DNA of 64,000 bases from Heptranchias perlo (lineage: Eukaryota), in contig NC_090357.1 in assembly GCF_035084215.1 (NCBI RefSeq), positions 1,798,001 to 1,862,000 on the forward strand. Reading direction: 5' to 3'. The notes under the pieces are model-generated. The model was not told the origin of the DNA. It was given only the letters and a program-made list of their open reading frames with translations, and made no database searches. Of this stretch, positions 3,878 through 33,100 are shown one piece after another. A program made the position numbers and the translations under genes. The first letter of the stretch is position 1. Every line of letters starts with the position of its first letter.

Positions 3878-6800
3878 GCTGATACCTTCATTCAGTGCAA
3901 TATAGTCTTCTTCAGAGGAGATGAGAACGACAGATGGATAAAGAGAGAAACAGGAAGAATGGTGGGAGTAAGAGGGCCATTTACAAAACTGCCTCTTTCG
4001 TAGGGTGGGGGCGGGGGAGGAGGGAAACGAAGGGAGGGTGGCATTCTTGGCATCACTCTGCCAGGCCTGTACTAGAGCCCGTGGGGTAAAGCAAGAGGAA
4101 ATCGAATAAAGACAAACAGTAAGGCTCATTATTTTCAGTCCTTACCCTGGCATCTCTTACCTGTGAGTTTTTGAACTCAGAGTAGAGGGTGAAAAGCACG
4201 TGCAGGGAATGGATGCGGTCCTTGTACACAGGGATATCTAGGATTGCTGCAGAGGGAGGAGAGAAAATAATAATTTTAAAACAAATACTTACAGAGCCTT
4301 AGTGTCAACAGCCTGGGCTGCAGCCAATCTAATGGGACATTTCCAGAGAGCCTGAGCTAACGATGACATGAAGAATCTCTATAAATTAACTGTGACGGCT
4401 ACGCCTGCTATTTAGCTGTGACCTTGCTGAGGTACAGTTCAATAGGGACTGTCAGCCCTCTAGTAACTCCCCTAACTGGCTGTTCTTCATGTGAGTTGCA
4501 GCAGGCTATTCATCCATGGGGGGAAGCATCATCACCACGCCTGATCCTGAGCAATATCTACACATGCACACGTGCTTTCTACTTGGGGCAATTGGACAGT
4601 GATCAGAAGCAGGTTCCCTGCCGGGCTGTTCCCCACCCTTGCCTGGAGCCTGTGAGGCTAATTGTAACACCCCTACTGTTCCGGCTGAGGAGATGGGCGG
4701 ACTGAAAGAAGCAGAGTTGAATACAGATCAATGACAGTTCCGGCACAGAACCCAGCACTTCATCTCCTCAGTCTGGATTTTCTCCCAGTGCAAGAGGTTG
4801 ATGGGACAGAGTTCCAACGCACAGTGTGGCGCCCATTCTGTATCTGTACAGGTTGTGTGAAGTTACCCAATATACTTTCAACTTCCCTCCTGCCAATCAC
4901 TTAACGCTAACAGCTTGTGCTTACCACAGATCATGTCAATGTACTGGGGCAGGTCGCAGTTGACTTCTGCTGTGGGCAGGCTCACCTAGGTTGAAAGGAG
5001 TTACCTCATTTAGCCACTGAGAGAAATATTTCACACTTGCAATACCAACAAGATGTAAAAGTTTACAGCCCTGATCAGACTCACTCACCTTTCCCAAAAG
5101 CTCCTCGAACTCTGGTGGCCACTCTTGCATGAGAGTGTCGATATCAGGCATTGGCCTATTGGGGGGAGAAGGGAGAACAGAATACATCAACTCACAGCTA
5201 CAAGACGAGGGTTTATTCCCCCTCTTCTCCTGAAGGCACTGAGTCTTGCTGGGATACAGTTCCAGAGGCACTGTCCACCACCTGAAGCAGTCACCATGCT
5301 TCATATGCAAGCCTAGCTTGTGAAAGTTAACGGGTTATTTGATTAAGCCCAATCCTGTCCTTACTCAATGTCCACACATGCTCAGTCACTGGGCAGGGAT
5401 TAAGAGGGGGATCCCTGGCTCATTTTCCCCTCCCTAATTCAGAGTGTTGAAGCCAACTGGAGCAGCCTACTGCTTAGGCTGAAATCAACAGACCTCAGCA
5501 CTGCGTGTGGGGAGGGTCAAAACAATTGGGGAACCTTCTGGTCAGTGCACACACTGAGCTATCAGAGGAACTCCTTCTGTAAACTTTCAAAACAGCAGGC
5601 AGCACAGAGTGATGGGTTAAGACACCACAGCCGTGCTGCAATGCTGCACAGCATGACAGAATGTCCCTGTCCCTCCCCGCCACCTCAACTGAGGGGTAAC
5701 TACACAGGATCAGGTAGTATCCGCTACCAGAGGGGTAAATACACAGGATCAGGTAGTATCCGCTACCAGAGGGATAAATACACAGGATCAGGTAGTATCC
5801 GCTACCAGAGGGGTAAATACACAGGATCAGGTATGTCCGTTACCAGAGTGGTAAATACACAGGATCAGGTAGTGTCCACTACCTGAGGGGTAACTACACA
5901 GGATCAGGTAGTATCCGCTACCAGAGGGGTAAATACACAGGATCAGGTAGTGTCCGCTACCAGAGGGGTAAATACACAGGATCAGGCTGTTGTTTGGATC
6001 CTGAATACTTGATGCATTGAACCCAACAGAAGGGACAGAAAGTGATGTGTTTGGGTGAGGAGAGGAAGAGATGTGACTCACTTGGTGTAGTGGACATTGG
6101 CAGGTGGTTTGGACCGGTGCAGCTCGCTGATGCTGTCCATCCAGTTATCAAGAGCTTTTGGATTCTTCTCTGCGTTCTCCAGGCTTTTCACCTTCAATTG
6201 CTGCTGGGAAAGAAAGGAATGGTAACTGGACCTTAAAGGCACCTTAAAGCCACATGCAGGTGCGACACTGGAACTTTGATCCAAACACTGCTATACCCAT
6301 AGCACCGTGGACCAGTAACAGGACTTTTATTGATTTCCTCCCTACCTCTCAGAGTCCCTGACTTATATCTCTAATTTAAAATTCTCATCCTTGCTTTCAA
6401 ATCCCTCCATGGCTCCTCCCTCCCTATCTCTGTAACCTCCTCCATCCCTACAACCCTCCGAGAACTCTGCGTTCCTACAATTCTTGCCTCTTGTGCATCC
6501 CTGATTTCCTCCGTTCCACTATTGGCGGCCGTGCCTTCGCTGTCTAGGCCCTAAGCTCTGGAATTCCCTCCCTAAACCTCTCCACCTCTCTCTCCTCCTT
6601 TAAGACCTCCTTAAAACCTCTTTGACCAAGCTTTGGTCATCTGTCCTAATATCTCCTGATGTGGCTTGGTGGCAAATTTTGACTGATAATCGCTCCCGAG
6701 ATGCGCCTTGGGACGTTTTACTTCATTAAAGGTGCTGTATAAATGCAAGTAGTTGTTATTGTACTGGGATATCGTTTGACCTCTCATACATCACCCAAAT

Positions 6801-9800
6801 GACCACATGCAAGTCTGAACAGTGATGTTGGCAGTCAATTCAATCACAGGCTGTATCTCAATTCAGTCTTTTCCTGTCCTCACCTGACGCGTACACATAC
6901 TTCCCAATGGAGGCACTGGAGAAGGAATCCTGGCTGATTTTTCCCGGCTTTGCCCAACCTGCCAGGTTGTTCCCGTGAATCCCATGACAAGGGAATGTGT
7001 TAATAAGAATAATTAAATTTAGCTGCATTTAAATTGCACATATGGTATCAAACACTGTCGCTGGTTCATGATATTTATTGAACCGGATGCACGACCAAAC
7101 AACAAGAGCAGCACAAGCTGCAGTGCCATCACTGGGCAGATTCAGTGCACTGGCACCAATGCATTAAAGGAAATATCACTTAAAACATACACTTTTTGCG
7201 TGATGCTCTGAATTAATCCTCTCAAATTGCTCCCACCCCTAGTGAGATACCTGTAATCACCAGCACTTAATCCTACAGCTCAAAGCACTCTCTCTAGACA
7301 CAAGTCTGGAAGGACAAAATCTAGAAATATGCTGCTGGCTATTTTTCATAGTTCAAGCAGACACACTGTAGAAATTTCATCCAATCTCCATTACACTTTA
7401 CTGAATACCCAGCGAGAACACTCAGCTGGTTTTGGCGGTTGGGTTAATCAATGGTGTTACAGCAGAGGCTGTGTCGCCTCTATTAATGTACTGCCTGTCT
7501 CCTTACCGTGATGCTGTGCTGCTTCGAATTCTCAGTCAGCCACAGTGACAGTACAGTTGGGTCAGACTGTTTCGCACAAGGTTCATCCAACGGGATCAGG
7601 CCCAGGTTGTCAGGCTTCCCATCGGGGCGAGGTACCTGCAGGTCACATGGGAAATAACACAACCATTCAGGGGAAATCATAGCGAAAATCTTCACATAAC
7701 TATCTGAATCAATCGCCCAATGGTGGGCTGGTAGGACTGGAGTCAGTAAACAGTTTAATCCTTAACGCGCCACACGAGTTGACCTGCTCAGCTGCGACCA
7801 GGCTCAGTGGGCTGTTGATCAGCTGACTCACTTGTCAGCAGCCATTCCTGGTTTGATGCATTTCTATGATGTGTGGAACAGGCGAAAATCAATAGAGAGC
7901 GTTTTAAGAGGAAAAAAATGGTTAGAATAGAATAAATGACCAAAAAATTCAAGTTAAAACTAAACTAGGAAAACAAGAATGGAGAAGGGGGGAAACTATG
8001 TATGGTAATAAAATAATTTCCTTCTGTACCTTCAAAAAAGCGTCGATATCACCCACTGAAGGAATGAAGTCAGGAATGAATGGCTTCAGTTTGTGATCCA
8101 GCTCGATGGATTGTGGAGTGTACCTGTCACACACAAGCACAAGCATGCTCAAACTTACAACCACGTCTCAACTCTTGTTTAATAACATAGATGGTGAGAC
8201 TCCCTTTCCCTACCTTGGGTCTCCATGAGCTATTGCTAACTGCAGGGTGCTGGGAGGGGAGAAAGGAGCCCAGAGTGACTCCCCCTCTTTGTGGGGAACT
8301 GCCTGTCCTCCACTTTACACTGGCAGTATATGGGTAAAATCACACCTTTCAACGGGCTGCTGAGAGGTGCACAAGAGTGTCCCAAGATGACTCGCCCACT
8401 GATCACCATCCCCTCTCCATGGAAAAAACCTGCCCTCTGCTCAGTGCTGCCCATAGTAATGTGGCTCAGAGCAGCAACTCGCTGTGTGGGGAAATCATCT
8501 GAGCAAACTCGGGTGCTACTATTTAAATATGTAACTAAGTATTTATAGTAATTTGGTGTGTACAATACTGCATGGATTGATACAATCAATTCTAATAATC
8601 AGTTTTTCACATACGAACAGGCTGCACAGGTACACAGCAAGTTAGGAGCATGCTGCACAGGTACACAGCAAGTTGGGAGCATGCTGCACAGGTACACTGC
8701 AAGTTGGGAGCATGCTGCACAGGTACACAGCAAGTTGGGAGCATGCTGCACAGGTACACAGCAAGTTGGGAGCATGCTGCACAGGTACACTGCAAGTTGG
8801 GAGCATGCTGCACAGGTACACTGCAAGTTAGGAACAAGTTGCACAGGTACACTGCAAGTTAGGAACAAGTTGCACAGGTACACTGCAAGTCAGCCTGCAG
8901 TTATTAATATAAGATTGCCAACTTGTTCTGGCAGTGGAAATCCATTTTTCCATGAATCTCAGGAACTGTCACTGGATTCACCAGTTCCACTTCTGCCTGG
9001 CACCTGTTGGAGAACAGTGGCTGGTGGAAGTGTAAATTGGGGGAGATTGTCACTGAGAGACTGGTATAGAACCACTCTCTCAAAACCGTCGCTGGAATAT
9101 AAAAGCACACAGAGACACAGGTATCCAAATGAAATAAATGATTGGCTGGCTGTTACCGTGTGATATACTGGAAAAGCTCCTTTATCTCAGTGGAAGTGGG
9201 AAGATGCTCATAATCTGCAGGGTCATATGCACTGAAAGGGAGAGAACATTCCAGATTATAGACAGTGACTCAGTTTTCTGATCCTATCAGTAATACTAGC
9301 CAGTAAATAGTATCACAGTAAATGGCATCACAATGAAACCATTAAACAGTGGGGAGAGAGTCTGCCAAAAAGAACATTACTCAGGGACCAGAGGAAATAA
9401 GTCTTTCCCTAAGCACCTTATCAAAACCCTTTAAATGTTAAAAACCTCAATTAAATCCCCTCTTAGTCTTCTCTGCTTTAGTGAAAATAGTCCCTGTTTC
9501 TCAAGTCTCATCCTGTGATTACAGTTTCTCATCCCTGGCATAAATAAACTGCCTGTTGGTTTGTAGCCGAGCCTCAGCCTGATCGTGTGTATTCGATCCA
9601 TCCACTGCAGCATGTTATACAGCGGACGCACAGTGGCAAAGCTTCTCTGTTCAGCCCCTGGGTCTTGCTCCAGTTGCCCTAGACATTGTGCAGGTTAAGG
9701 CACGCAGTGGATAAGAGGTCTGCTAACAGCAAGGTCAGTGACAATGAACCCAAGGAGATTATTTAGCGTAAAAAACAAAAGGCGTAGAAGCCAGTTATTT

Positions 9801-14750: not shown

Positions 14751-17482
14751 TAGAATCATAGAATGGTTACAGCACTGAAGGAGGCCATTTGGCCCATCGA
14801 GCAAGAGCAAGAGCAATCCAGCTAGTCCCACTCCCCCCCCTCTTTCTCCGTAACCCTGCAAATTTTTCTTCTTCAGGTACCTATCTAATTCCTTTTTGAA
14901 AGCCACAATTGACCCTGCTTCCACCACCCTTTCAAGCAGCGCATTCTAGATCCTAACCACTCGCTGCGTAAAAAAGTTTTTCCTCATGTTGCCTTTGGTT
15001 CTTTTGCCAATCACCTTAAACCTGTGTCCTCTGGTTTGCCAGTGGGAACAGTTTCTATTTATTTACTTTGTCTAGACCCTTCATGATTTTGAACTCCTCT
15101 ATCAAATCTCCTCTCAACATTCTCTGCTCTAAGGAGAACAATCCCAGCTTTTCCAGTCTATCCATGTAACTGAGGTCCCTCATCCCTGGAACCATTCTAG
15201 TAAATCTTCTCTGCATTCTCTCTAAGGCCTTCACATCCTTCCTAAAGTGCAGTGCCCAGAATTGGACACAATATTTCGAACCAGTGTTTTATAAAGGTTC
15301 AATATAACACCCTCACTTTTGCACTCTATGCCTCTATTTATAAAGCCCAGGATCCCGTATGCTTTCTTAACTGCTTTCTCAATTTGTCATGCCACCTTCA
15401 ACAACCTGTGTACATATACCCCCAGTTTTCTCTGTTCCTGCACCCCCTTTAGTTTATACTGCCTCTTCTCATTCTTCCTACCAAAATATATCACCTCACA
15501 CTTCTCAGCATTAAATTTCATCTGCCACGTGTCCATCCATTCTATCAGCCTATGTCCTCTTGAAGTCTATCACTATCCTCCTCACTGTTTACTACACTTT
15601 CAAGTTTTGTGTCATCTGCAAATTTTGAAATTGTGCCCTGTATACCCAAGTCCAAGTCATTAATATATAACAAGAAAAGCAGTGGTCCCAGTACCGACCC
15701 CTGGGGAACCCCACTGTATACCTCCCTCCAGTCTGAATAACAACCGTTCACGACTACCCTCTGTTTCCTGTCACTTAGCCAATTTCGTACCATGCTGCCA
15801 CTGCCCCTTTTATTCCATGGGCTTCAATCTTGATGACAAGCCTATTATGTGGCTCTTTATCAAATGCCTTTTGGAAGTCCATATACACCACATCAACCGC
15901 ATTGCCCTCATCTACCCTCTCTGTTACCTCATCAAAAAACTCAATCAAGTTAGTAAAACACGATTTGCCTTTAACAAATCCGTGCTGGTTTTCCCTTATT
16001 AATCTACACTTGTTCAAGTGACTATTAATTTTGTCCCAGATTATTGTTTCTAAAAGTTTCCTCACCACCGAGGTTAAAATGACTGGCCTGTAGTTGGGGT
16101 TTATCTTTACATCCTTTTTTGAACAAGGATATAACATTTGCAATTCTCCAGTTCTCCGGCACCACCCCGTGTCTAAGGAGGTTTGGAAGATTGTGGCGAG
16201 TACTTCTGCAATTTCCACCCTTACTTCCCTCAGCAACCTAGGATGCATCCCATCCAGACCTGGTGACTTGTCTATTGTAAGTACAATCAGCCTTTCTAGT
16301 ACCTCCTCTTTATCAATTTTTATCCTGTACAGTATCTCTCAACTACCTCCTCTTTTACTGTGGCTTTGGCCGTATCTTCTTCCTTGGTAAAGACAGATGC
16401 AAAGTACTCATTTAGTACCTCAGCCATGCCCTCTGCCTCCATGCGTAGATCTCCTTTTTGGTTCCAATCGTCCCCACCCCTCCTCTTACTACCCGTTTAC
16501 TGTTTATATGCCCATAGAAGACTTTTGGATTCCCTTTTATGTTAGCCGTCAGTCTATTTACATACTCTCTCTTTGCCCCTCTTATTTCCTTTTTATCTTC
16601 CCCTCTGAACTTTCTATACTCAGCCTGGTTCTCACTTGTATTAACAACCTGACATCTGTCATACGCCCCCTTTTTCTGCTTCATCTTGCTCACTATCTCT
16701 TTCGTCATCAGGGAGGTCTGGCTTTGGTCGTCCGATCTTTTCCCCTGGTGGGAATGTATCTAGACTGTAGCCGAACCATCTATTCTTTAAAGGCCACCCA
16801 TTGTTCAATTACAGTTTTGCCTGCCAATCTTTAAATCCAATTTAATCGGGCCAGATCCATTCTCGTCCCATTGAAATCGGCCCTCCTCCAATTAAATATT
16901 TTTACTCTAGATTGCTCTGTGTCTTTTTCCATAGTTAATCTAAACCTTATGATACTATGATCACTGTTCCCTAAATGTTCCCCCATTGACACTTGCTCCA
17001 CTTGATCCATCTCATTTCCCCAGAACCCGATCCAGCAATGCCTCCTTCCTCGTTGGGCCAGAAACTTACTGATCAAGAAAGTTCGCCTGAACACACTTCA
17101 GAAATTCTTCCCCTTCTTTGCCCTTTACACTATTACTGTCCCAGTCTATATTAGGGTGGTTGAAGTCCCCCTTTATCACTACTCTATAGTTCTTGCACCT
17201 TCTGTAATTTCCCTGCAAATTTGCTCCACTACATCCTTCCCACTAGTTGGTGGCCTATAGAATACATCCAGTAGTGTAGCGGCACCTCTATTGTTTCTTA
17301 ACTCTAGCCAAACAGATTCTGTCCTTGACCCCTCAAGGACATCCCCTTCTCCAGCACTGCAATATTCTCCCTAATCAATACTGCCACCACCCTCCCCTCC
17401 TTTTTTTCCTTCCCTATCTTTCCTGAACACCTTGTATCCAGGGATATTTAGTACCCAATCCTGCCCTTTTTTGAGCCAGGTC
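14751..17482 (-). mobile_element. Degraded CR1 LINE in an IFT46 intron
   Basis: Frameshifted RT fragments (15545-16248); EHLGNSDH endonuclease-end motif (16831-17094); ATAGAATC tail. Confidence 0.92.
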
Positions 17483-18484: not shown

Positions 18485-19442
18485 CTGAAAACAAATTAAA
18501 AGGTTCTTTCAATTTAATGAAATAACTGGTTTCAAAAGTTGAAGCAAATCAGTCGTTTGTGCTGTACTTTACAAAATAAACACCCTGGGCTAAAGAATTG
18601 GGGGGGGGGGGGAGAGGCAGGGGGAAGGAATCAGCAAGGGTCTCCATTCCTGATCATTATCCAGTAACTCGTGTGCCAGGCAAGTACCTGTAGTCCCGTA
18701 CCAAGTCAGAGTCCAAGCCTTCCGAGGAGGAAATAAAGAGTTGTCAGCATGCATCTATCAGGAGGTTCACCGCATTCAGGTTAACCTCACCCATGTAAAC
18801 ACACTGGATATCAGCACACCTACCAGTCCTGGTACATCACTGGATATTATTTACATTCAGTCTGTTATAAAAAGAAAATGATTCATACAGCGTTTTATCA
18901 CATGTCTCAGAAATGTACCAAAGCACCTCACGTAAAATGGATTACTCTGAAGTGCAGTCACTTTTGTTATGTAGGCAAACACAGGAGTCACCTTGTGTAC
19001 AGCGAGATCCCATAGATACCATGCGTTAATTGACTAGTTAATGTGTTTTTGGTGGTGTTGGCTGAGGGAAGATGTTGGGCAGGACATCAGGAGAACCCCC
19101 TGCTCTCTTAGTAGTGCCATAGGATCTTTAACATCCACCTGAACTAATGGAGCAGCAGGCAGCAAGGCTTTGGTTTAACATCTTTGAATTTTACAACACA
19201 GGAGGGCATTCGCCCCTCTGTACTTGTGCCAGCTCTCCGTAAGAGCTATCCACTTAGTCCCGTTCCTCTGCCCTATCTCTACACCCTTTTATGTCTTTCT
19301 TTTTAAAATATTTATCCACTTCCCTTTTAAAAGCCATTATGGATTCTGCTTCTAGTGCAGTTTCTGATACAGCAATTCCATGTCCTAACAATTGTCTGGA
19401 TAAAAACAATTCTCCTAACCTCTCCCTTCATTCTTTTTAAGT

Positions 19443-19464
19443 GTCAGCTTGGTTCAGTCAGTCT

Positions 19465-19497
<33 letters not shown>

Positions 19498-19925
19498 TGA
19501 GTCCTACTCCAGAGACTTGAGCACATAATCCAGGCTGACCTTTCATTGCAGTAATGAGGGAGCGCTGCACTGTCCGAGGTGCCGACCTTTGGACAAGATG
19601 CTAAACCCATCTGTCTCCTCAGGTGGATGTTAAAGATCCCACAGCACTATTTATAAAAGGGACACGTCTTGTGACAAAGGCATTGTTTCTGTTACTAACG
19701 CCGCGCAGGCAATAGCAGTTTCTAACCTCTAACCTTAACCCCAACCCCAAATTGGTGTCACCAGCGTAATGCAGGGCAGACTGCGGTGCCGTTGGTCACT
19801 CCCTTATAGAAGAGCAGGGGAGTTCTCCCGGTGGGATGACCAGCATTCCTCCCTCAATCAACACCACCACAAACACATTAACTGGTCATTCATCTCATTG
19901 CTGTTTGTGGGATCTTGCTGTGCGC
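19443..19925 (+). mobile_element. Deu-domain SINE with an internal insertion (about 19655-19805)
   Basis: Head and Deu domain, then the 3' half resumes after about 150 nt of unrelated sequence. Confidence 0.7.
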
Positions 19926-19929
19926 ACAC

Positions 19930-20460
19930 TGGCCGCCCCCATCGGCTGTCCCGCGCTCCGGGGACGGAGACCGCTGTATTAACAGGTCCTTCTCCTGATG
20001 TTAAGTTTAGGCCCGGCAGGGAGAGCAGATCCCCCCCGCCCCCGTTTAGCTGATCGCACCCAGTCATTACTTTCAGCTGCTCTCCCGGCTGTTTAACCCT
20101 CATCCACAGGCCGCCCCTCGGCCGATGCAACGCCGCGCTGGGGGTGACCGGCCCGAGGCTCGAGGCCCGGCCCGTCCGCGGGCACCCGTGTCACTGAGGT
20201 TCGATAAACGGGACGAGAGTCAGGCGGCTCCAACACTGAGCACGGGCCCCCGATATTCGGCCTATTCACCGCGTCCTAGGCCCCGTTGCTATGGTTACCT
20301 TCGCTCCCTCAGAGTCTGACTCCGCCATTAACTCTGCCGCCAAACACATTCGCCAAAGAGCGTAAGAAACGTCAAGAGAATACACCGGTATCGGACCTCC
20401 CACAGCAGCGCGACCGGCAGGCGATGAGAGGGCGGTACCGTTGCAATTTGCAGTGGCTGC
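19930..20460. promoter_or_regulatory. CpG island / IFT46 promoter and first exon(s)
   Basis: CpG-dense GC-rich stretch; minus-strand donor GCG|gtgaat at 20270/20269. Confidence 0.75.
20285..20298. promoter_or_regulatory. RFX X-box (GTTGCTATGGTTAC)
   Basis: Close match to the X-box palindrome GTTGCCATGGCAAC, in the promoter of a ciliary gene. Confidence 0.8.
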
Positions 20461-20945
20461 AGCCTATTTTTCAAAGTTACTTTAATTTCACTGGTCACAT
20501 TTTACCTGGCCATTTATCACATTGCTGTTTGTGGGATCTTGCTGTGTGCAAATTGGCTGCTGCATTTCTTACAACAGTGATTACACTTCAAAAGTACTTC
20601 ATTTACTATAAAGCGCTTTGGGCTATCCTGAGGTTGTGTAAGACGCTATATAAATGCAAGTCTTTTAAACCTGCAAGGTTCCTAGGGAGATGAATGGCCT
20701 CCTCGTCTGTACCAACCTTTGATACATTTCTCTGGCAAAATATGATTGAGGCAGAAGTACAGAGTCCTCATCTTGATTCTTCAGAAAAGCATTCCTCACT
20801 CTGTTACCTTCATGGCTTCAGCTCAGTTAAGAACATTTTTATTCAAAGTCCTTTGATCACAGGATTGACGTGGAGGTGACCAGGTTCCCAAGCTATGGGC
20901 AAGCATGCTCAGGCCAGTCTCAGCTATTCCACCCGAGTTCCTGAC

Positions 20946-20986
20946 ATTTACCTGAGGAAGGAGGAAGCCTCCGAAAGCTTGTAAAT
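20946..20986 (+). ncRNA. Minimal hammerhead ribozyme motif, Penelope type
   Basis: ATTTAC-CTGAGGA-A-GGAG(GAAGC)CTCC-GAAA-GC-TT-GTAAAT: stem I ATTTAC/GTAAAT, CUGANGA and GAAA core boxes, stem II GGAG/CTCC, palindromic AGCT in place of stem III. Confidence 0.7.
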
Positions 20987-21040
20987 TTCAAATAAAATCG
21001 TTGGACTATAACTTGGTGTTGTAAAATTGTTTACAATTGT
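20946..21040 (+). mobile_element. Penelope-like retroelement terminal (pLTR) fragment
   Basis: Hammerhead motif followed by AATAAA and ttggactataacttggtgttg, as I recall for elasmobranch Penelope ends. Confidence 0.6.
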
Positions 21041-21329
21041 TCACCCAAGTGGCCATTTTTTACTTGCACAAGTCTGCATCGAATGGAGGACATCACATCC
21101 GAGCCTCCTCCTGCTCAAACCAGCCATCCAAATGCACACATTTCCCCAGTAAGGTCACTGGCTCGTGATCGGAAGTGGGAACAGCTGATTTTTTTTCCTC
21201 CACTGCAGATGAGATTAGCTAACTCAATAACTTGGAGATTAAACGGCCCTGGGTCCTTGCAGTTCAGTGCTGAACATCTAGCCATCAAACTGGAACAGAA
21301 TCTTCGATGGTCTTCCCTATGCGTGTAAC

Positions 21330-21630
21330 TGCTCTACAACCCTCCGAGATCTCTGGCCTCCAGCGCATTCCGATTTTCATCGCTCCACTATTGGCGGCCA
21401 TGCCTTCAGCCATCTAGGCCCTAGGCTTTGGAATTCCCTCCCTAAACCTCTCCGCCACTCTCCCCCTATAAGACGCTCCTTAAAACCTACCTCTTTGACC
21501 AGGCTTTTGGTCACCTGTCCTAAAATCTCCTTATGTGGCTCGGTGTCAAATTTTGTCCGATTACGGTCCCGTGAAGCGCCCTGGGACGTTTTACTACGTT
21601 AAAGGTGCTGTATAAATGCAACTTGTTGTT
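21330..21630 (+). mobile_element. L2 3' fragment
   Basis: Homologous 3' end and tail. Confidence 0.8.
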
Positions 21631-22907
21631 GGACTTATCTAGGCAGATAATAACTTTATCCGTGAACAGCAATCCAATTACTGCAGTAGATTTTATTTAC
21701 ATTTAGAAATCCTAAAAGTGTATTTTTGAACTGTGCACAGAAACAATCTATTAAGCACTGGGACATGCAAAGACCAGGCAGAATGGCAGAAAATGCAAGA
21801 ACAAATGGGAAGTAGACACATCATGAAGAACCGGGGGTGGGGTCCTGACAGGGTGGGCCGCGCAAGTGCCCAAGGTCTGAAACTGGCCTCTAAAAAGACG
21901 TGAAGCTGAATCATAAAAGTGATAAACTCCTTATACTGCGCATGCAAAGCAGCACAGGGTATAATCACTGGGGCTGCCCTCCCCCACCCTCCTGTCTCCC
22001 GACAAGACTGGTAGATTTAGACATTTATGGCAGGAGATGGGCTGAAGTGGAGCAAAACAATTCTCTAGCCCTCGCACTGCCACATGGGGGAATCAGACGG
22101 GATCTTCTCCTGAAGCAGGTGCTTTGGCTTCATTTCAGCTGGTGAGACTAGCGGTCGGAGGGGATTTGATATTGTCGTGCAATAACTTGGGAGTCATGAT
22201 TTGTAGGATTTTCTCGGGTGTTCCAGTCAACAGCCAGGGAGCCGAGAGGCAACTCGCACAAAAATGCAACATCGAACATTTAAGACTCCACACACTGAAC
22301 CCTCAGGATATAAAACCTCAAACTCAGATAATCCCAACATCTCGCGTGAACAGACAGTGCAGCTGGGATCGAGCAGACTCCTCCCTGGATCTCTCACACC
22401 AGGTTAAGTGGGAGACCCACTGCTCGGGTTCAGGAGGGATGTCTGACGCCGTGTACCCTCCCCGCGGGACGCCGTGCACTCGAGTGTTTTCAGACAGCCA
22501 GGCTGCTTGTTTGTCCTGGGTAAGGAGGGGCAGGTTTGCCTCAGAAACCAAATCCAGACTGCAGGCGGGCGGCAGCTTTTACCCATTAACATGATGAGGA
22601 TTTCACCACCTGGTTAAACCGCCGTTAACGTTACATTCCTTTGGTGCTCATAACCAGTCAGGTCGTGAAGATCAACAGGCATTCTCGGTCTCCTGGTTAG
22701 TGGGCAAATATACAAGAAGGTAACAGTTTGTGGGAGGAGGGAAAGAGAACGGACCGAGGATCTTACTCACCACGAGGCCAAACTCAGGAGAAATGAGGGA
22801 AAGAAAATAAAAATAAAATGCTTCAACATTACAGTAAAAGCACGACTGTACATCCTTAAACTTTTAGCTTTTCCTCCCATTTTTTTAAACCTACATGTAA
22901 TTTATCA

Positions 22908-22913
22908 TTTATT
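22908..22913 (-). terminator. Candidate proximal VPS11 poly(A) signal
   Basis: AATAAA on minus strand about 1 kb after the stop; a second one lies at 21692-21697. Confidence 0.4.
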
Positions 22914-23963
22914 TACTGAGAGAAATTGAGACCTGGATCCAGCCTTATTCCAACTTACAGAACTGCAGGGATCAGTGTGTCTCTAGTCAACATTTACTTG
23001 GTACTTGGGGTCTCAGAGAAGCTACATCCAACCCTGGCCATAATGCTTATTCACGGCCATGCTCGGTTAGATGTGGCACTGCTACACACAGAACTAACAC
23101 TGTATGCTCTTGGCCGTTTGTACTTGGATTACAGCGGAACACAGCTGTGGAGGTGGGTGTAGTAAATCCTTCACTGTGTAAACCAAATAACTAACGTGAC
23201 TGGGCTGCAGACCAGACACTGGTACCTGGGCTGGGCACATCTTGAAACTGAAGTCCCCACTTAGACAAATCAAGGCTCTGTGACTGCATACAATGCAAGA
23301 CTATCAGGCTTAAATAGATGAGCAGTGTGTAGTGTAACTGTACACCTGGCTATGAAACACTGCACCAGGTGCGACCAAACACTCAACAAAAGGACAGGAG
23401 TTAAAAAGGAAACTGTGAGGATGTGGGGAAGATTAATGGCCAAGAGGGAGAACTGAATCACTATTCCCCCAGGTCAAATATGGGCCATTTCCACTTGTTC
23501 CATCTTCACTGCCGAGTGAGTGATGAATTATGCAGGTCTGTGGATTCATGTCCACCAGAACCTAAGTTAATGACCCCCTGCTACTCTGAGGCGGGACCCT
23601 CAGGGCCTGTGGAAAGTCCCTCCGACCCACTGTAAGGTTGGAAGAGTAAAGCAGTGACACCACAGGCAATTTCACTGCATTCACCGGTAGGTTTTCTGGT
23701 CGACCAGCTAGGATTCCCAGGACATCCACAAGACCGGGCCTCAGGATGTTGCCATGGCGATCGCAACTAACCAATTACACACACACAATTTGCATGAGCG
23801 CTCTGCGTTGCCCTGCACTAACTCACACTCCTCGTCACTTCTGCAGTCTCTAGCACCAAAGCAATTCAGCTTACTGCAACTTTTATATTACAGCAAGAGT
23901 TAGACATGAAGAGTTATTAAAAAAAACAAGAGTTTGATGAAGGTGCAGGCGTTGGGTTCTGTC

Positions 23964-24131
23964 CTAGGCTGTTCTCTTGGTGTGTATCAACAGGTCCCTC
24001 TGAAGTCCAGCATCGATGGTGGTAGTGGCTGCTCTCCCTGGGAGGGGGTCCGTGATTAGCGTCAGCTTGTTGAAGACCCCACGGCCAAAGTAATCCGCAA
24101 TGACAGAGAATCCGTCCTTCGAACACTTCAA
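23964..24131 (-). CDS. VPS11: VPS11 exon 16 (last coding exon)
   Basis: [22 protein letters not shown]...HTKRTA*. Confidence 0.95.
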   Translation of the reverse strand: MKCSKDGFSVIADYFGRGVFNKLTLITDPLPGRAATTTIDAGLQRDLLIHTKRTA

Positions 24132-27100
24132 CTGGGAAGCAAGCAGAGTGTTACATTTCATTTAAAGGAACAGACGCAAAGCATGAGATCAGTAACGCAA
24201 CAGGATCAGTTAAACCAGGAGTGAGGGAACTCCAGGCCTCCTCTGATGGCTTCGAGTTAAGGCATGGAACAGATCAGAAGATCCCAGGGTCAATCCCAGT
24301 CAGAGTCAGCTGATCTCCTCCAGGACCTCAGCGGGAACGCTGTGCTCGACCCTGGGCTAAGGGAGGGAGGGAGGGGGGAGAAAAGGCAGCCAGAGTCCCA
24401 GTCCTGATCACTAACCAGTGATTCCTGCACAGGTGGATATCGGGCGAGACCAGGATCGGGATCGACTGCAATGGCTCTCATGGTCAAATAGTCTGTCAGC
24501 CTCCCGCGATAGACACGGCCCCGACGCCCGGAGCCTCCCGCGATAGACACGGCCCCGACGCCCGGAGCCTCCCGCGATAGACACGGCCCCGACGCCCGGA
24601 GCCTCCCGCGATAGACACGGCCCCGACGCCCGGAGCCTCCCGCGATAGACACGGCCCCGACGCCCGGAGCCTCCCGCGATAGACACGGCCCCGACGCCCG
24701 GAGCCTCCCGCGATAGACACGGCCCCGACGCCCGGAGCCTCCCGCGATAGACACGGCCCCGACGCCCGGAGCCTCCCGCGATAGACACGGCCCCGACGCC
24801 CGGAGCCTCCCGCGATAGACACGGCCCCGACGCCCGGAGCCTCCCGCGATAGACACGGCCCCGACGCCCGGAGCCTCCCGCGATAGACACGGCCCCGACG
24901 CCCGGAGCCTCCCGCGATAGACACGGCCCCGACGCCCGGAGCCTCCCGCGATAGACACGGCCCCGACGCCCGGAGCCTCCCGCGATAGACACGGCCCCGA
25001 CGCCCGGAGCCTCCCGCGATAGACACGGCCCCGACGCCCAGAGCCTCCCGCGATAGACACGGCCCCGACGCCCGGAGCCTCCCGCGATAGACACGGCCCC
25101 GACGCCCAGAGCCTCCCGCGATATGGTCCCGACGCCCGGAGCCTCCCGCGATAGACACGGCCCTGACGCCCGGAGCCTCACGCGATATGGTCCCGACGCC
25201 CGGAGCCTCCAGCGATAGACACAGCCCCGACGCCCGGAGCCTCCCGCGATAGACACGGCCCTGACGCCCGGAGCCTCCCGCGATAGACACGGCCCTGACG
25301 CCCGGAGCCTCCAGCGATAGACACAGCCCTGACGCCCGGAGCCTCCAGCGATAGACACAGCCCCGACGCCCGGAGCCTCCAGCGATAGACACAGCCCTGA
25401 CGCCCGGAGCCTCCCGCGATAGACACAGCCCTGACGCCCGGAGCCTCCCGCGATAGAGTTCCGATACCTGGTGCTGGAATTTCTCGTGAAGATCCTGCTT
25501 CTGCTCCTGGGCACGGATCATGTCCATGACTTTCCGGTTTTCTGGCATGCAGGTTGGGCATTCAGAGTCGTGTTCTGCATAACTCTCGAAGCAGTGCTGG
25601 TGGAAGGAGTGGCCACACAGGAAATGGACAGAGGGCAGTTCCAGGGGACTATTACACATGCTGCACTTGGGCTTCTGGAAGATCTTTGCACTGTCAACAG
25701 ATGAACATCAAACCTGATAACAACTCCCTGCAGATTGAGCAGAGCGCAGCGAGTTTCGAGGCATACAGGCAGAAGCTTATACATGTTCTTAAGACTCTAA
25801 CTTGCCGGAGGGAGCGAGTGTACAGGGGAGAGATTCATAGCCCAGGGACGGAGCTCCCCACCTCTCTCCACACATAGGCGGTTCTGAGCAAAGGCCGAGC
25901 AGCTGCTTCCAGAAGATGATCACAGTGTTCAGCGACAAACACCACAGCTGCCCTGAGACAGAGTTACACAGCCCCAAAACATTCGGAAAAATTAATGCCC
26001 TGAAGTTGTGCACAAGACTTTAACACAGTTCAGTTGTCCCAAGAGCGCGGGGCCATTAGAGAATGAGTTACAGGCTCACTGCGTCTGAGACACAATCAGA
26101 GCCCCTTGACTCCACTTTTGGCTTGTTAACATGCTCCAGGATTTATCTAACAATGAGCCCAAAGGAAAGGCACCGGGCCCGAGAGAGGATCTGATGTTTC
26201 GCCCACTTTATGCTCATTTACCTGCTCTTCAGTTCCTCGATCTCCTCTCGGATTTTCTTGGTTTCCTCTCGGTATTGTTTGATCTTTCGCTCATCCTCTG
26301 CAATGTGGTCACTCTCCTGCTGCAGCTTGTTAATGAGGTAATCCTTAATGACCGAGAGCGTGGCTGTGGAGTTATGAGCAAGCGTCTGCACAACTGGGGA
26401 GAAAAAGAGGGAAAAGCTTCAGATTCATCAACACTTACAAGAGGGCCTCCGCTTGGAAAACCTTAAGAACATCGGGGGGAAGCAAAATCTAGAACGGCTT
26501 TTAAAAGGGAAGTGGATAAATATTTGAAAGAAAAATTAAAAAAGGGTACGGGGAACGGGACTAATTGGAGCGATGCTCTTTCAGAGAGTCGGGTGCAATG
26601 GCCTGAATGGCCTCCTTCAGTGTTGTAAAATTGTATGATTCTCTGAACAACCGATTAAATATAAATCGTCTCAAGCAGCAATGTGCAGCATCCAGGAACG
26701 ACTGGACAGGCAGAGGACCCTCCCCTCCGAATTTCTTCCTCTCCTCCGACTGTACAATCGTTTTTCCTCAGTTATCGTCTTGCGGTTATAAAGCCCAGAA
26801 ATCAATCGCTCTGTTGGGATCACGAGAGACACAGACCTGCTTTTCTAAGGTTCAATGGCGATTTTACATCGATAGTAAATCTACACAACATTCTGAACTG
26901 GAGATCTCCAAACTGGGAGCTGATGACCCTACAGGCCCTGTGAAGTTACCAGGTTTCTGTCTGTCTGTCACAGGCCCAGTCAGTAAGCAGTGTCTGCACA
27001 GCTCAATTCTATATTTTTCTGCATTCATTGATTTAAGAGCAAGGTTCTTTCTGTTGCTGTAACCCAGCGTTGTCCAATACATTAACCACTGGCTACATCT

Positions 27101-30100: not shown

Positions 30101-33100
30101 AGAACACAAGAAGTCGGAGCAGGACCCGGCCACATAGCCCCTGGGCCCTCTCCGCCACCCACAGGGCATTGACCGATCCGAACTCAGCTTCATGTCCAAT
30201 TTCCTGCCCGCTCCCCATAACCCCTAATTCCCTTTACTTCTAGGAAACTGTCTATTTCTGTTTTAAATTTATCTAATGATGTAGCTTCCACAGCTTCCTG
30301 GGGCAGCAAATTCCACAGACCTACCACCCTCTGAGTGAAGAAGTTTCTCCTCATCTCAGTTTTGAAAGAGCAGCCCCTTATTCTAAGATTATGCCCCCTA
30401 GTTCTAGTTTCACCCATCTTTGGGAACATCCTTACCGCATCCACCCGATCAAGACCCTTCACAATCTTATATGTTTCAATAAGATCGCCTCTCATTCTTC
30501 TGAACTCCAATGAGTAGAGTCCCAATCTACTCAACCTCTCCTCATATGTCCGCCCCCTCATCCCCGGGATTAACCGAGTGAACCTTCTTTGTACTGCCTC
30601 GAGAGCAAGTATGTCTTTTCTTAAGTATGGAGACCAAAACTGTATGCAGTATTCCAGGTGCGGTCTCACCAATACCTTATATAACTGCAGCAATACCTCC
30701 TTGTTTTTATATTCTATCCCCCTAGCAATAAAAGCCAACATTCCGTTGGCTTTCTTGATCACCTGCTGCACCTGCATACCAACTTTTTGATTTTCTTGCA
30801 CTGGGACCCCCAGATCCCTTTGTACTGCAGTACTTTCCAGTCTCTCGCCATTAAGAAAATAACTTGCTCTCTGATTTTTCCTGCCAAAGTGCATAACCTC
30901 ACATTTTCCAATATTATATTGCATCTGCCAAATCTCCGCCCACTCACCCAGCCTGTCTATATCCCCTTGCAGGTTTTTTATGTCCTCCTCACTCTCTACT
31001 TTCCCTCCCATCTTTGTATCATCTGCAAATTTTGATATGTTGCACTCGGTCCCCTCCTCCAAATCGTTAATATAGATTGTAAAGAGTTGGGGACCCAGCA
31101 CCGACCCCTGTGGAACACCACTGGTTACTGGTTGCCAGTCCGGAAATGAACCATTTATCCCAACTCTCTGCTTCCTGTTTGATAACCAATCCTCCACCCA
31201 TGCCAGAATATTACCCCCAATCCCGTGATTTTTTATCTTAAGTAATAATCTTTTATGTGGCACCTTGTCGAATGCCTTCTGGAAGTCTAAATACACTACG
31301 TCCACTGGTTCCCCTTTATCCACCCTATACGTTATATCCTCGAAGAACTCAAGCAAATTTGTCAGACATGACTTCCCCTTCATAAAGCCATGCTGACTTT
31401 GTCCTATTAAATTATGCTTATCTAAATGTTCCGTTACTGTCTCCTTAATAATAGACTCCAAAATTTTACCCACCACAGATGTTAAGCTAACTGGCCTATA
31501 ATTTCCAGCCTTCTGCCTACTACCCTTTTTAAATAACGGTGTTACATTAGCAGTTTTCCAATCTGCCGGGACCTCTCCTGAGTCCAGGGAATTTTGGAAA
31601 ACTATCACCAAAGCATCCACAATCCCTACTGCCACTTCCCTCAAGACCCTAGGATGGAAGCCATCAGGTCCAGGGGATTTATCCGCCTTGAGTCCCATTA
31701 TTTTACTGAGTACCATCTCCTGAGTGATTTTAATCGTATTTAGCTCCTCCCCCCCGAGAGTCCCCTGTTTGTCCAGTGTTGGGATATTCTTAGTGTCCTC
31801 TACTGTAAAGACTGAAACAAAATATTTGTTCAGCATTTTTGCCATCTCCATGTTTCCCACCATTAATTTCCCGGTCTCATCCTCTAAGGGACCTATGTTT
31901 GCCTTAGCCACCCTTTTTCTTTTTATATAACTATAGAAACTCTTGCTATCTGTTTTTATATTTTTTGCTAATTTCTTTTCATAATCTAACTTCCCTTTCT
32001 TAATCAATCCTTTAGTTACTTTTTGCTGTCTTTTGAAGAATTCCCAATCTTCTATCCTCCCACTAAGTTTGGCTACCTTATATGTCCTTGTTTTTAGTCG
32101 GATACTATCCTTGATTTCTTTACTTAGCCACGGGTGGCTGTCATTTCTTTTACACCCTTTTTTCCTCAGTGGAATATAGAATGATACAGTGCAGAACGAG
32201 GCCATTCGACCCATCGTGCCTGTGCCGGCTCTTTGAAAGAGCTATCCCAGTTAGTCCCACTCCCCTGCTCTTTCCCCATAGCCCTGCAAATGTTTTCCCT
32301 TCAAGTATTTATGTAATTCTCTTTTGAAAGTTATTATTGAATCTACTTTCATCACCCTTTCAAGGCAGCGCGTTCCAGATCATCACAATTCACTGGGTAA
32401 AAAAAATTCTCGTCTCCCCTCTGGCTCTTTTGCCAATTATCTTAAATCCGTGTCCTCTGGTTACTGACCCTCCTGCCACTGGAAACAGTTTCTCCCTATT
32501 TACTCTATCAAAGCCCCATATAATTTTGAACACCTCTCCCCTTAACCTTCTCTGTTCTAAGGAAAACAATCTCAGCTTCTCCAGTCTCTTCACATAACTG
32601 AAGTAACTGATCAGGGTTCACATCCTGGGATGAAAGTCGTACGGTGCCAAGTGAGTTTAGACACTGGAATCAGCCCATTAAATTGGGAATCCTGCTCAGA
32701 GGCCACAGGGAAAAGGTGTTAGAAGAAAGGGAAATGCTGCAGAGGGGCAGCGAGGGTTGGTACTGAGGCTGGGATTGGCATATTGTTAGAGCAGAAATTG
32801 AGCATTTTAGCCCCTCTAACCCCACACTGTACCAGGGAGCCAAAAGCAGAAGAGTGTCCCATTGCCTAGCAGAAACAGTGGGGGGAAACTCATCAGTGTG
32901 TACGGGGGAAAGGCAAACAGTTCCAACCTGTGTCTCCTCCTCATGGGCCCAGTCCTGCAGCCGGAGTTCGAGCAGCGTGTCGTACACACCCTGCGGGGAG
33001 TTGGTCTGCACCTGGATCATATGCTCCAGGAACTCCTTCAGCTCCCGTGGGTTGTTGGCAAAGATCGGAATGAACTCCTCTGAATTCGCCTAAAAAACAA

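What the first reader, a model, noticed from the sequence alone, without database searches (positions are those of the whole stretch)
20946..21040. Solo Penelope-type minimal hammerhead ribozyme between the VPS11 3' end and the IFT46 promoter
Seen: all hammerhead core elements on the + strand, namely a perfect 6-bp stem I (ATTTAC 20946-51 / GTAAAT 20981-86), CUGAGGA, one extra A, stem II GGAG/CTCC, GAAA and then GC-UU. The A-GC-U loop is too short to close as a monomer, but AGCU is palindromic. Established: Penelope-like elements carry minimal hammerheads of this type that cleave as dimers. Inference: this is an isolated Penelope end with stem I intact and an AATAAA just downstream, about 650 nt upstream of the IFT46 X-box and oriented like promoter-upstream antisense transcripts from the IFT46 CpG island. 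It could cleave or terminate such RNA, or it could be an inert remnant.
Basis: partly seen in the sequence, partly recalled or inferred. Interest (0 to 1): 0.7.

Follow-up and report, generated by a model that had tools for sequence, protein, structure and literature searches.

The report
Ordinary Penelope stub with minimal hammerhead
The motif is real: it lies in a 105-base stub of a young Penelope-like jumping gene whose ribozyme core occurs about 40,000 times in this genome; this lone copy likely cannot cut RNA and likely landed between VPS11 and IFT46 by chance.

Summary
Observation confirmed. Window 20935-21039 is the end repeat (pLTR) of a Penelope-like retroelement. Its 30-nt core has 40,246 exact matches genome-wide, 0.8 expected per window. 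A full-length relative has the motif on both sides of an intact 902-aa ORF with RT, CX2-5CxxC and GIY-YIG-like motifs. Short solo stubs like this one were 8 of 60 sampled loci. The gene context holds: VPS11 contigs end near 21680, and a spliced exon taken as IFT46 exon 1 starts at 20328-20351. A local ribozyme role is unlikely. There is no partner copy and no TATA box. Host bases 20899-20918 are predicted to pair with the catalytic core in any read-through RNA. The intact stem reflects youth (0-1 differences to 5 other copies). The AATAAA is element-borne (93 of 97 copies). One contig ends in an A-run 13-15 nt after it, so any local effect would more likely be ordinary polyadenylation. The scan already noted this family elsewhere in this genome, and the poly(A) site in other genomes. 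The kind has been known since 2014.

The parts
20935..21039 (+). Short solo pLTR stub of a Penelope-like element (about 105 bp; the 3' junction is uncertain by several bases). It lacks the element's TATA box, ORF and 30-40-bp tail.
   Evidence: Alignments to L002, L003, L004, L006 and L031 start at 20935 and end at 21036-21046; classed solo_short; no TATA upstream
20946..20986 (+). Minimal type-I hammerhead motif; predicted cut 3' of 20980
   Evidence: Sequence; isolated fold; pair counts on 18 copies
20977..20980 (+). Two-base linker plus cleavage triplet end; with 20976 it forms the 4-nt palindrome that would give helix III only between two copies
   Evidence: Sequence; definition in PMC4209133
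20991..20996 (+). Element-borne AATAAA; first AATAAA or ATTAAA on the + strand beyond the upstream end of the exon at 20351
   Evidence: 93 of 97 sampled copies carry it; hexamer scan
21009..21022 (+). Candidate poly(A) addition site of the family (about 21009-21011) and GU-rich downstream element (about 21013-21022)
   Evidence: One X3 contig matches 20975-21011 and continues as 18 A (tables 7-8); GU-rich word in 94 of 97 copies
20927..20934 (+). Left copy of an imperfect target-site duplication candidate
   Evidence: Sequence; the exact shared word is only 5 nt, 20930-34 with 21042-46
21040..21046 (+). Right copy of the imperfect duplication candidate (may partly be element tail)
20899..20918 (+). 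Single-copy host flank predicted to pair with the catalytic core (20908-13 with 20951-56) and the cleavage strand (20899-904 with 20977-82)
   Evidence: Pair probabilities 0.91-0.96; flank 20670-20934 is unique in the genome
20071..20351 (-). Spliced first exon in a CpG island, inferred to be IFT46 exon 1; contains the X-box-like palindrome 20285-20298
   Evidence: Contigs X1 record 1 and X3 record 17; GT donor at 20070; CpG o/e 0.96
21681..24135 (-). VPS11 last exon: stop at 23964, 3' UTR to about 21680, AATAAA at 21697-21692
   Evidence: Pfam VPS11_C; contigs end at 21681 and 21686

Best explanation
This is a 105-bp stub of the end repeat of a young, very abundant Penelope-like retroelement, carrying that family's minimal hammerhead motif and AATAAA; it is likely a dead-end insertion with no ribozyme activity or selected role at this locus. 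Shown: identity with the pLTR of an intact full-length element, high copy number, and absence of the TATA box, ORF, tail and partner copy. Inferred: the element's RT-endonuclease primed at a nick, began copying at the AC-rich site near the RNA leader's 3' end (as shown for the anole element PAc), and stopped after about 105 nt, close to the predicted RNA start. The motif matters to the parent element, where two pLTR copies 3,080 nt apart could pair into a double hammerhead, probably with protein help. In the stub, helix III cannot close, and host bases are predicted to sequester the core in any + strand read-through RNA.
For: 40,246 exact core matches, 0 for the reversed control. L031 holds core-ORF-core plus an inverted copy, with a 902-aa ORF: RVT_1 E=2.5e-10, and CX2-5CxxC and GIY-YIG-like motifs. 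8 of 60 loci taken in listing order are short solo stubs. Over 20946-21039 there are 0 differences to one other copy and 1 to four others. Stem I shows C-G/U-G/U-A exchange among 18 hand-picked copies, 94% of cells paired against 20-51% when slid, so the constraint lies in the parent lineages. Stem I probability is 0.00-0.07 in 28 of 28 folds starting at or before 20905. The explicit double hammerhead scores -14.1 kcal/mol against -15.0 for two monomers and -27.1 for an inactive duplex. A single min-HHR was inactive and dimers weak (PMC4209133). PAc HHR cleavage needed protein and was not needed for insertion in vitro (PMC11167929).
Against: The copy has an all-Watson-Crick 6-bp stem I, as only 7 of 97 sampled copies do. 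In isolation stems I and II form well. It sits on the strand of upstream antisense transcription and supplies the first canonical poly(A) hexamer there. Fold predictions are equilibrium models, and only 15 of 65 other copies passed the same stem-I test, including failures for full-length copies, so the test is blunt. No exact 10-14-bp duplication was found, unlike most inverted-pair loci (12 of 16 had a 10-17-nt shared word). No stranded or nascent RNA data were available.
Confidence: 0.85

Rival explanations
1. The stub acts, incidentally or by co-option, as an ordinary poly(A) site that ends upstream antisense transcripts from the IFT46 promoter near 21010, before they reach the VPS11 3' end; the ribozyme is a passenger.
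For: It gives the first AATAAA or ATTAAA on the + strand after 20351; the next is at 21238. A GU-rich element follows. No match to four donor-like hexamers was found on + 20351-21300. One contig carries this copy's exact 37-mer followed by 18 A, and that 37-mer was in 0 of 97 unselected copies. The PAS model of antisense termination is summarised in PMC11230626 (passages).
Against: The 37-mer also occurs in L004 and L005, so the contig is not locus-specific. It is one contig in one of four runs from one sample, RNA status is a guess, and a genomic A-run is not excluded (0 of 112 sampled copies had one). PMC11230626 reports that most human antisense termination is PAS-independent. A host ATTAAA lies about 250 nt further on, so the effect would be small.
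Confidence: 0.1
2. The hammerhead cleaves + strand antisense RNA at 20980 by pairing in trans with abundant family RNA or with help from the element's protein, and so terminates or degrades it.
For: Core and stems are intact. Family sequence is abundant in the RNA-like contigs. Protein-assisted cleavage is reported for PAc (PMC11167929).
Against: Core predicted sequestered by 20899-20918; no cis partner; active dimer not favoured; low activity even as dimers (PMC4209133; review PMC6765202 passages); no RNA-seq ends at the PAc cut site (PMC11167929).
Confidence: 0.03
3. The stub is what remains after deletion or recombination of a longer insertion, not a primary short cDNA.
For: No clean duplication at the junctions.
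Against: Near-identity to other copies implies little time. Short 5' extents are the norm: 32 of 65 copies extend 26 nt or less upstream of the core. No element pieces lie nearby.
Confidence: 0.07

Closest known systems
Minimal hammerheads (min-HHR) in pLTRs of metazoan Penelope-like elements (Cervera and De la Pena 2014, PMC4209133)
   Same: Type-I topology, core boxes, extra base between positions 9 and 10.1, G10.1-C11.1, palindromic 15.2-16.2, no monomeric helix III, mostly single copies from truncated elements, thousands per genome in fish, coelacanth and frog.
   Different: A different family; copy number is higher (40,246 exact cores against about 4,000 and 9,000 in that paper). An AATAAA 10 nt past the predicted cut was not mentioned in the parts read.
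EN+ Penelope-like elements of Neptune/Nematis type (Craig et al. 2021, PMC8557442, passages)
   Same: The parent has RT, then CX2-5CxxC, then a GIY-YIG-like motif, partial tandem pLTRs, an inverted 5'-truncated copy and a one-sided tail (L031).
   Different: The window copy is only the short pLTR end. Clade placement rests on the motif, not on a tree.
PAc, Poseidon element of Anolis (Frangieh et al. 2024, PMC11167929)
   Same: Two RT start sites bounding a tail; HHR near the ORF start; the stub ends at the short end.
   Different: Here the HHR lies wholly upstream of the ORF (predicted cut 93 nt before the ATG), and the ORF has the Zn-finger-like linker.
Non-LTR retrozymes (bioRxiv 10.64898/2026.07.22.740005, abstract and Results part 1)
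   Same: Non-coding, HHR-bearing derivatives of PLE pLTRs, with dispersed intergenic monomers.
   Different: No tandem units here, and the helix III region is minimal.

Membership tests
min-HHR of metazoan PLEs | CUGANGA and GAAA boxes and a cleavage triplet closed by helix I | tested here: met
min-HHR of metazoan PLEs | Extra nucleotide between 9 and 10.1; G10.1-C11.1 pair | tested here: met
   A20959; G20960-C20972
min-HHR of metazoan PLEs | Palindromic 15.2-16.2 region, no stable monomeric helix III | tested here: met
min-HHR of metazoan PLEs | Located in the pLTR of an RT-coding PLE | tested here: met
   L031 cores at 1139 and 4219 flank the 902-aa ORF
min-HHR of metazoan PLEs | Self-cleavage as a dimer | not testable with these tools
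   Energy model only
Rfam hammerhead families | Match to a curated covariance model | tested here: not met
   No hammerhead hit at E<=10 in 20500-21500
EN+ PLE, Neptune/Nematis type (parent element) | Single ORF with RT | tested here: met
   RVT_1 E=2.5e-10, over the cut-off
EN+ PLE, Neptune/Nematis type (parent element) | C-terminal GIY-YIG endonuclease | tested here: inconclusive
   Motif-like match at aa 790-809, but no Pfam hit at E<=1; phage search empty; Atlas unavailable
EN+ PLE, Neptune/Nematis type (parent element) | CX2-5CxxC linker motif before the endonuclease | tested here: met
   aa 753-761; definition in PMC8557442
EN+ PLE, Neptune/Nematis type (parent element) | Partial tandem pLTRs, inverted copy, 30-40-bp tail | tested here: met
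   L031 and other loci
EN+ PLE, Neptune/Nematis type (parent element) | RT phylogeny | not tested
   No reference RT set was fetched
Non-LTR retrozyme | Tandem HHR-bearing units | tested here: not met
   Single copy in the window

The most novel reading that the evidence does not exclude
A recent Penelope stub has given the IFT46 promoter a working antisense poly(A) terminator that keeps upstream antisense polymerase off the VPS11 3' end 640 nt further on. More broadly, the family's pLTR carries a used poly(A) site between the ribozyme and the reverse-transcription start sites. Polyadenylated element mRNA would then offer a priming site only in its leader, which would explain the mass of short stubs and make them portable terminators.
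Probability: 0.08. Interest if true: 0.45.

Novelty: new member of a known kind. Interest (0 to 1): 0.12.

Why it matters
As a single copy it matters little: one of roughly 3,000 short solo stubs. That figure is a rough extrapolation from 8 of 60 loci, 97 cores in those 60 loci, and 40,246 cores genome-wide. Its value is as a caution: intact ribozyme motifs near genes are expected by chance in this genome. The family-level point, a likely poly(A) site just behind the ribozyme, bears on how Penelope-like RNAs end and why short stubs dominate. It rests here on one contig, and the scan has noted it in other genomes.

Tried and rejected
Rfam scan: no hammerhead model matched. Expression at the locus: no RNA holder listed on record; four runs guessed to be RNA, from one sample and one study, were laid. 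No contig covered the unique flanks 20696-20911 or 21056-21350 at 98% likeness in any of the four. This is no evidence either way: contigs give no strand, antisense RNA is unstable, and the sampled animal may lack the insertion. The depth of 30-50 in bin 20778-20931 was spill-over from the repeat and vanished with finer bins. The idea that the stub lies inside the VPS11 3' UTR (a minus-strand AATAAA exists at 20843) is not supported: the contigs listed end at 21681-21833. An exact count of this copy's subfamily failed: a 60-base reference search returned nothing because common words are skipped. Searches misclassified solo loci through faulty references and were redone. No exact duplication of 10 or more bases was found around the stub. 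Lunse et al. 2017 was not held and is known only through the review PMC6765202. Literature searches: promoter upstream transcripts + self-cleaving ribozyme + transposable element gave 0 papers; Penelope-like elements + polyadenylated + pseudo-LTR gave 0; Penelope-like + pLTR + polyadenylation signal gave 1 review; Penelope-like + hammerhead + shark gave 1 review, listing only. No supplements were read; those of PMC4209133 may list related fish families.

Full report
Observation. Random resamples of the window gave a hit in 1 of 200, so it is not a compositional accident. Rfam has no matching model: 1 unrelated match at E=2.5 in 20500-21500. The features match the minimal hammerhead defined in PMC4209133 (main text parts 1-2 of 4 read): an extra base after the core box, G10.1-C11.1, and a palindrome in place of helix III.

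What it is. A genome search with 20940-21045 returned 40 full-length matches at 93-100% identity, this copy included, from 40 scored candidates. A pattern for the 30-nt core has 20,150 forward and 20,096 reverse exact matches, with 0 for the control; 0.8 are expected per window. Longer copies continue upstream into an RT ORF. Locus L031 holds a complete unit: core, 902-aa ORF, second core 3,080 nt later, and an inverted copy with tail. The ORF has RVT_1 over the cut-off, a CX2-5CxxC motif and a GIY-YIG-like motif. PMC8557442 (passages) gives the cysteine motif as typical of Neptune/Nematis; Pfam did not confirm the endonuclease and no tree was built. The window copy matches the family from 20935 to about 21039. 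It begins about 11 nt before stem I and lacks the TATA box, which lies 30-41 nt upstream of stem I in 37 longer copies. It ends at the short end without the tail. I fetched 60 loci covering the first listed places, about 85 of the 100 listed and all from the first 6 Mb of C1: 32 had two or more cores, 10 a core plus an inverted piece, 10 a long single copy (a partner beyond the fetched flank is possible), and 8 a short solo stub like this one. The copy differs by 0-1 bases from five other copies and by a median of 7 from 65 unselected ones, so its intact stem needs no local selection. The junction duplication is imperfect (5 nt exact), whereas 12 of 16 inverted-pair loci share a 10-17-nt word.

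Family constraint. In 18 hand-picked copies, 94% of stem cells pair, against 20-51% for slid controls, and one stem I pair shows C-G, U-G and U-A. Related sequences inflate such counts, but the pattern fits selection on the motif in parent lineages. A 6-bp stem I is present in 62 of 97 copies, all Watson-Crick in 7.

Context. IFT46 domain exons lie at 4161-8143 and the VPS11 last coding exon ends at 23964, both on the - strand. Contigs from four runs guessed to be RNA (one sample) stop at the VPS11 exon boundary 24135 and run to 21681-21833, two of them ending beside a minus-strand AATAAA at 21697. Two contigs cover an exon from 20328 or 20351 downwards, one ending at the GT donor at 20070; its link to the IFT46 coding exons is inferred, not shown. 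The stub thus lies about 590-610 nt upstream of that exon and about 640 nt past the VPS11 end, on the antisense strand of both. With 20,123 copies per strand, about 120 of an assumed 20,000 promoters would have one within 1 kb by chance.

Mechanism. PMC11167929 (parts 1-2 of 4) shows that the anole element's RT starts internally at two sites bounding the tail, that its hammerhead cleaves only with the element's protein, and that cleavage is not needed for insertion in vitro. By analogy (inferred), this stub is a short cDNA of the RNA leader begun at the inner start site. For local cleavage it would need a partner and a free core. There is no second copy in the window. The explicit double hammerhead is no more stable than two monomers and far less stable than an inactive duplex. 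In all 28 folds that start at or upstream of 20905, stem I probability is 0.07 or less, because host bases 20899-20918 pair with both the core and the cleavage strand. That test is blunt: only 15 of 65 other copies passed it. Single min-HHRs were inactive and dimers weak in PMC4209133; the review PMC6765202 (passages) says the same.

The poly(A) signal. The AATAAA belongs to the element (93 of 97 copies), with a GU-rich word behind it (94 of 97). One 55-nt contig in run X3 matches 20975-21011 exactly and continues as 18 A. The same 37 bases occur in L004 and L005, so it cannot be assigned to this locus, and a genomic A-run is not excluded (0 of 112 copies sampled had one). On the + strand this is the first canonical hexamer beyond the promoter; a host ATTAAA follows at 21238. 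PMC11230626 (passages) describes the PAS model of antisense termination but finds most human antisense termination PAS-independent. I give this local role about 10%.

Earlier scan notes. 241 of 747 notes on this genome fit 'Penelope hammerhead'; none lay near this place. Notes from other genomes report the same poly(A) site. I saw the A-tailed contig before reading those; they are unchecked AI notes and not independent support. The notes call these genomes shark-like, which I did not test.

Verdict. A real minimal hammerhead motif in an ordinary, recent Penelope-like stub. Known kind, low interest (0.12).

Noticed in passing
L031:1139-4303 (G000:C1:2377438-2380600): Intact full-length element: 902-aa ORF without stops between two hammerhead-bearing pLTRs, plus an inverted copy; the family looks recently active.
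   Followed up: partly
window 20975-21011; run X3 record 23: A contig ends in 18 A, 13-15 nt after the element's AATAAA; likely a family poly(A) site, not locus-specific.
   Followed up: partly
window 20285-20298: The X-box-like palindrome lies inside the transcribed first exon, 30-65 nt downstream of the contig 5' ends; that exon holds three ATGs.
   Followed up: no
window 19441-19652, 19808-19937, 20502-20666, 21390-21629: Other dispersed repeats, 70-84% alike to copies in other loci, with very high summed contig depth where laid; likely SINE or LINE tails.
   Followed up: no
window 30190-32241 (-) and 15545-17242 (-): LINE-type RT: a 683-aa open frame in a VPS11 intron, and broken RT and endonuclease pieces between the first exon and the IFT46 domain exons.
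   Followed up: no
window 24290-25707: GC-rich (0.61-0.65) stretch in the last VPS11 intron region with three long overlapping open frames on the - strand; only the first 83 aa of one match VPS11 domains; possibly a tandem repeat.
   Followed up: no
window 23513, 23640, 23665: Single-base differences between the laid contigs and the window in the VPS11 3' UTR; probably alleles.
   Followed up: no
L039, L040, L042, L043, L047, L048, L050-L052, L055, L057, L062, L067: Head-to-head palindromic insertions with tail on one arm and 10-17-nt shared flank words.
   Followed up: partly
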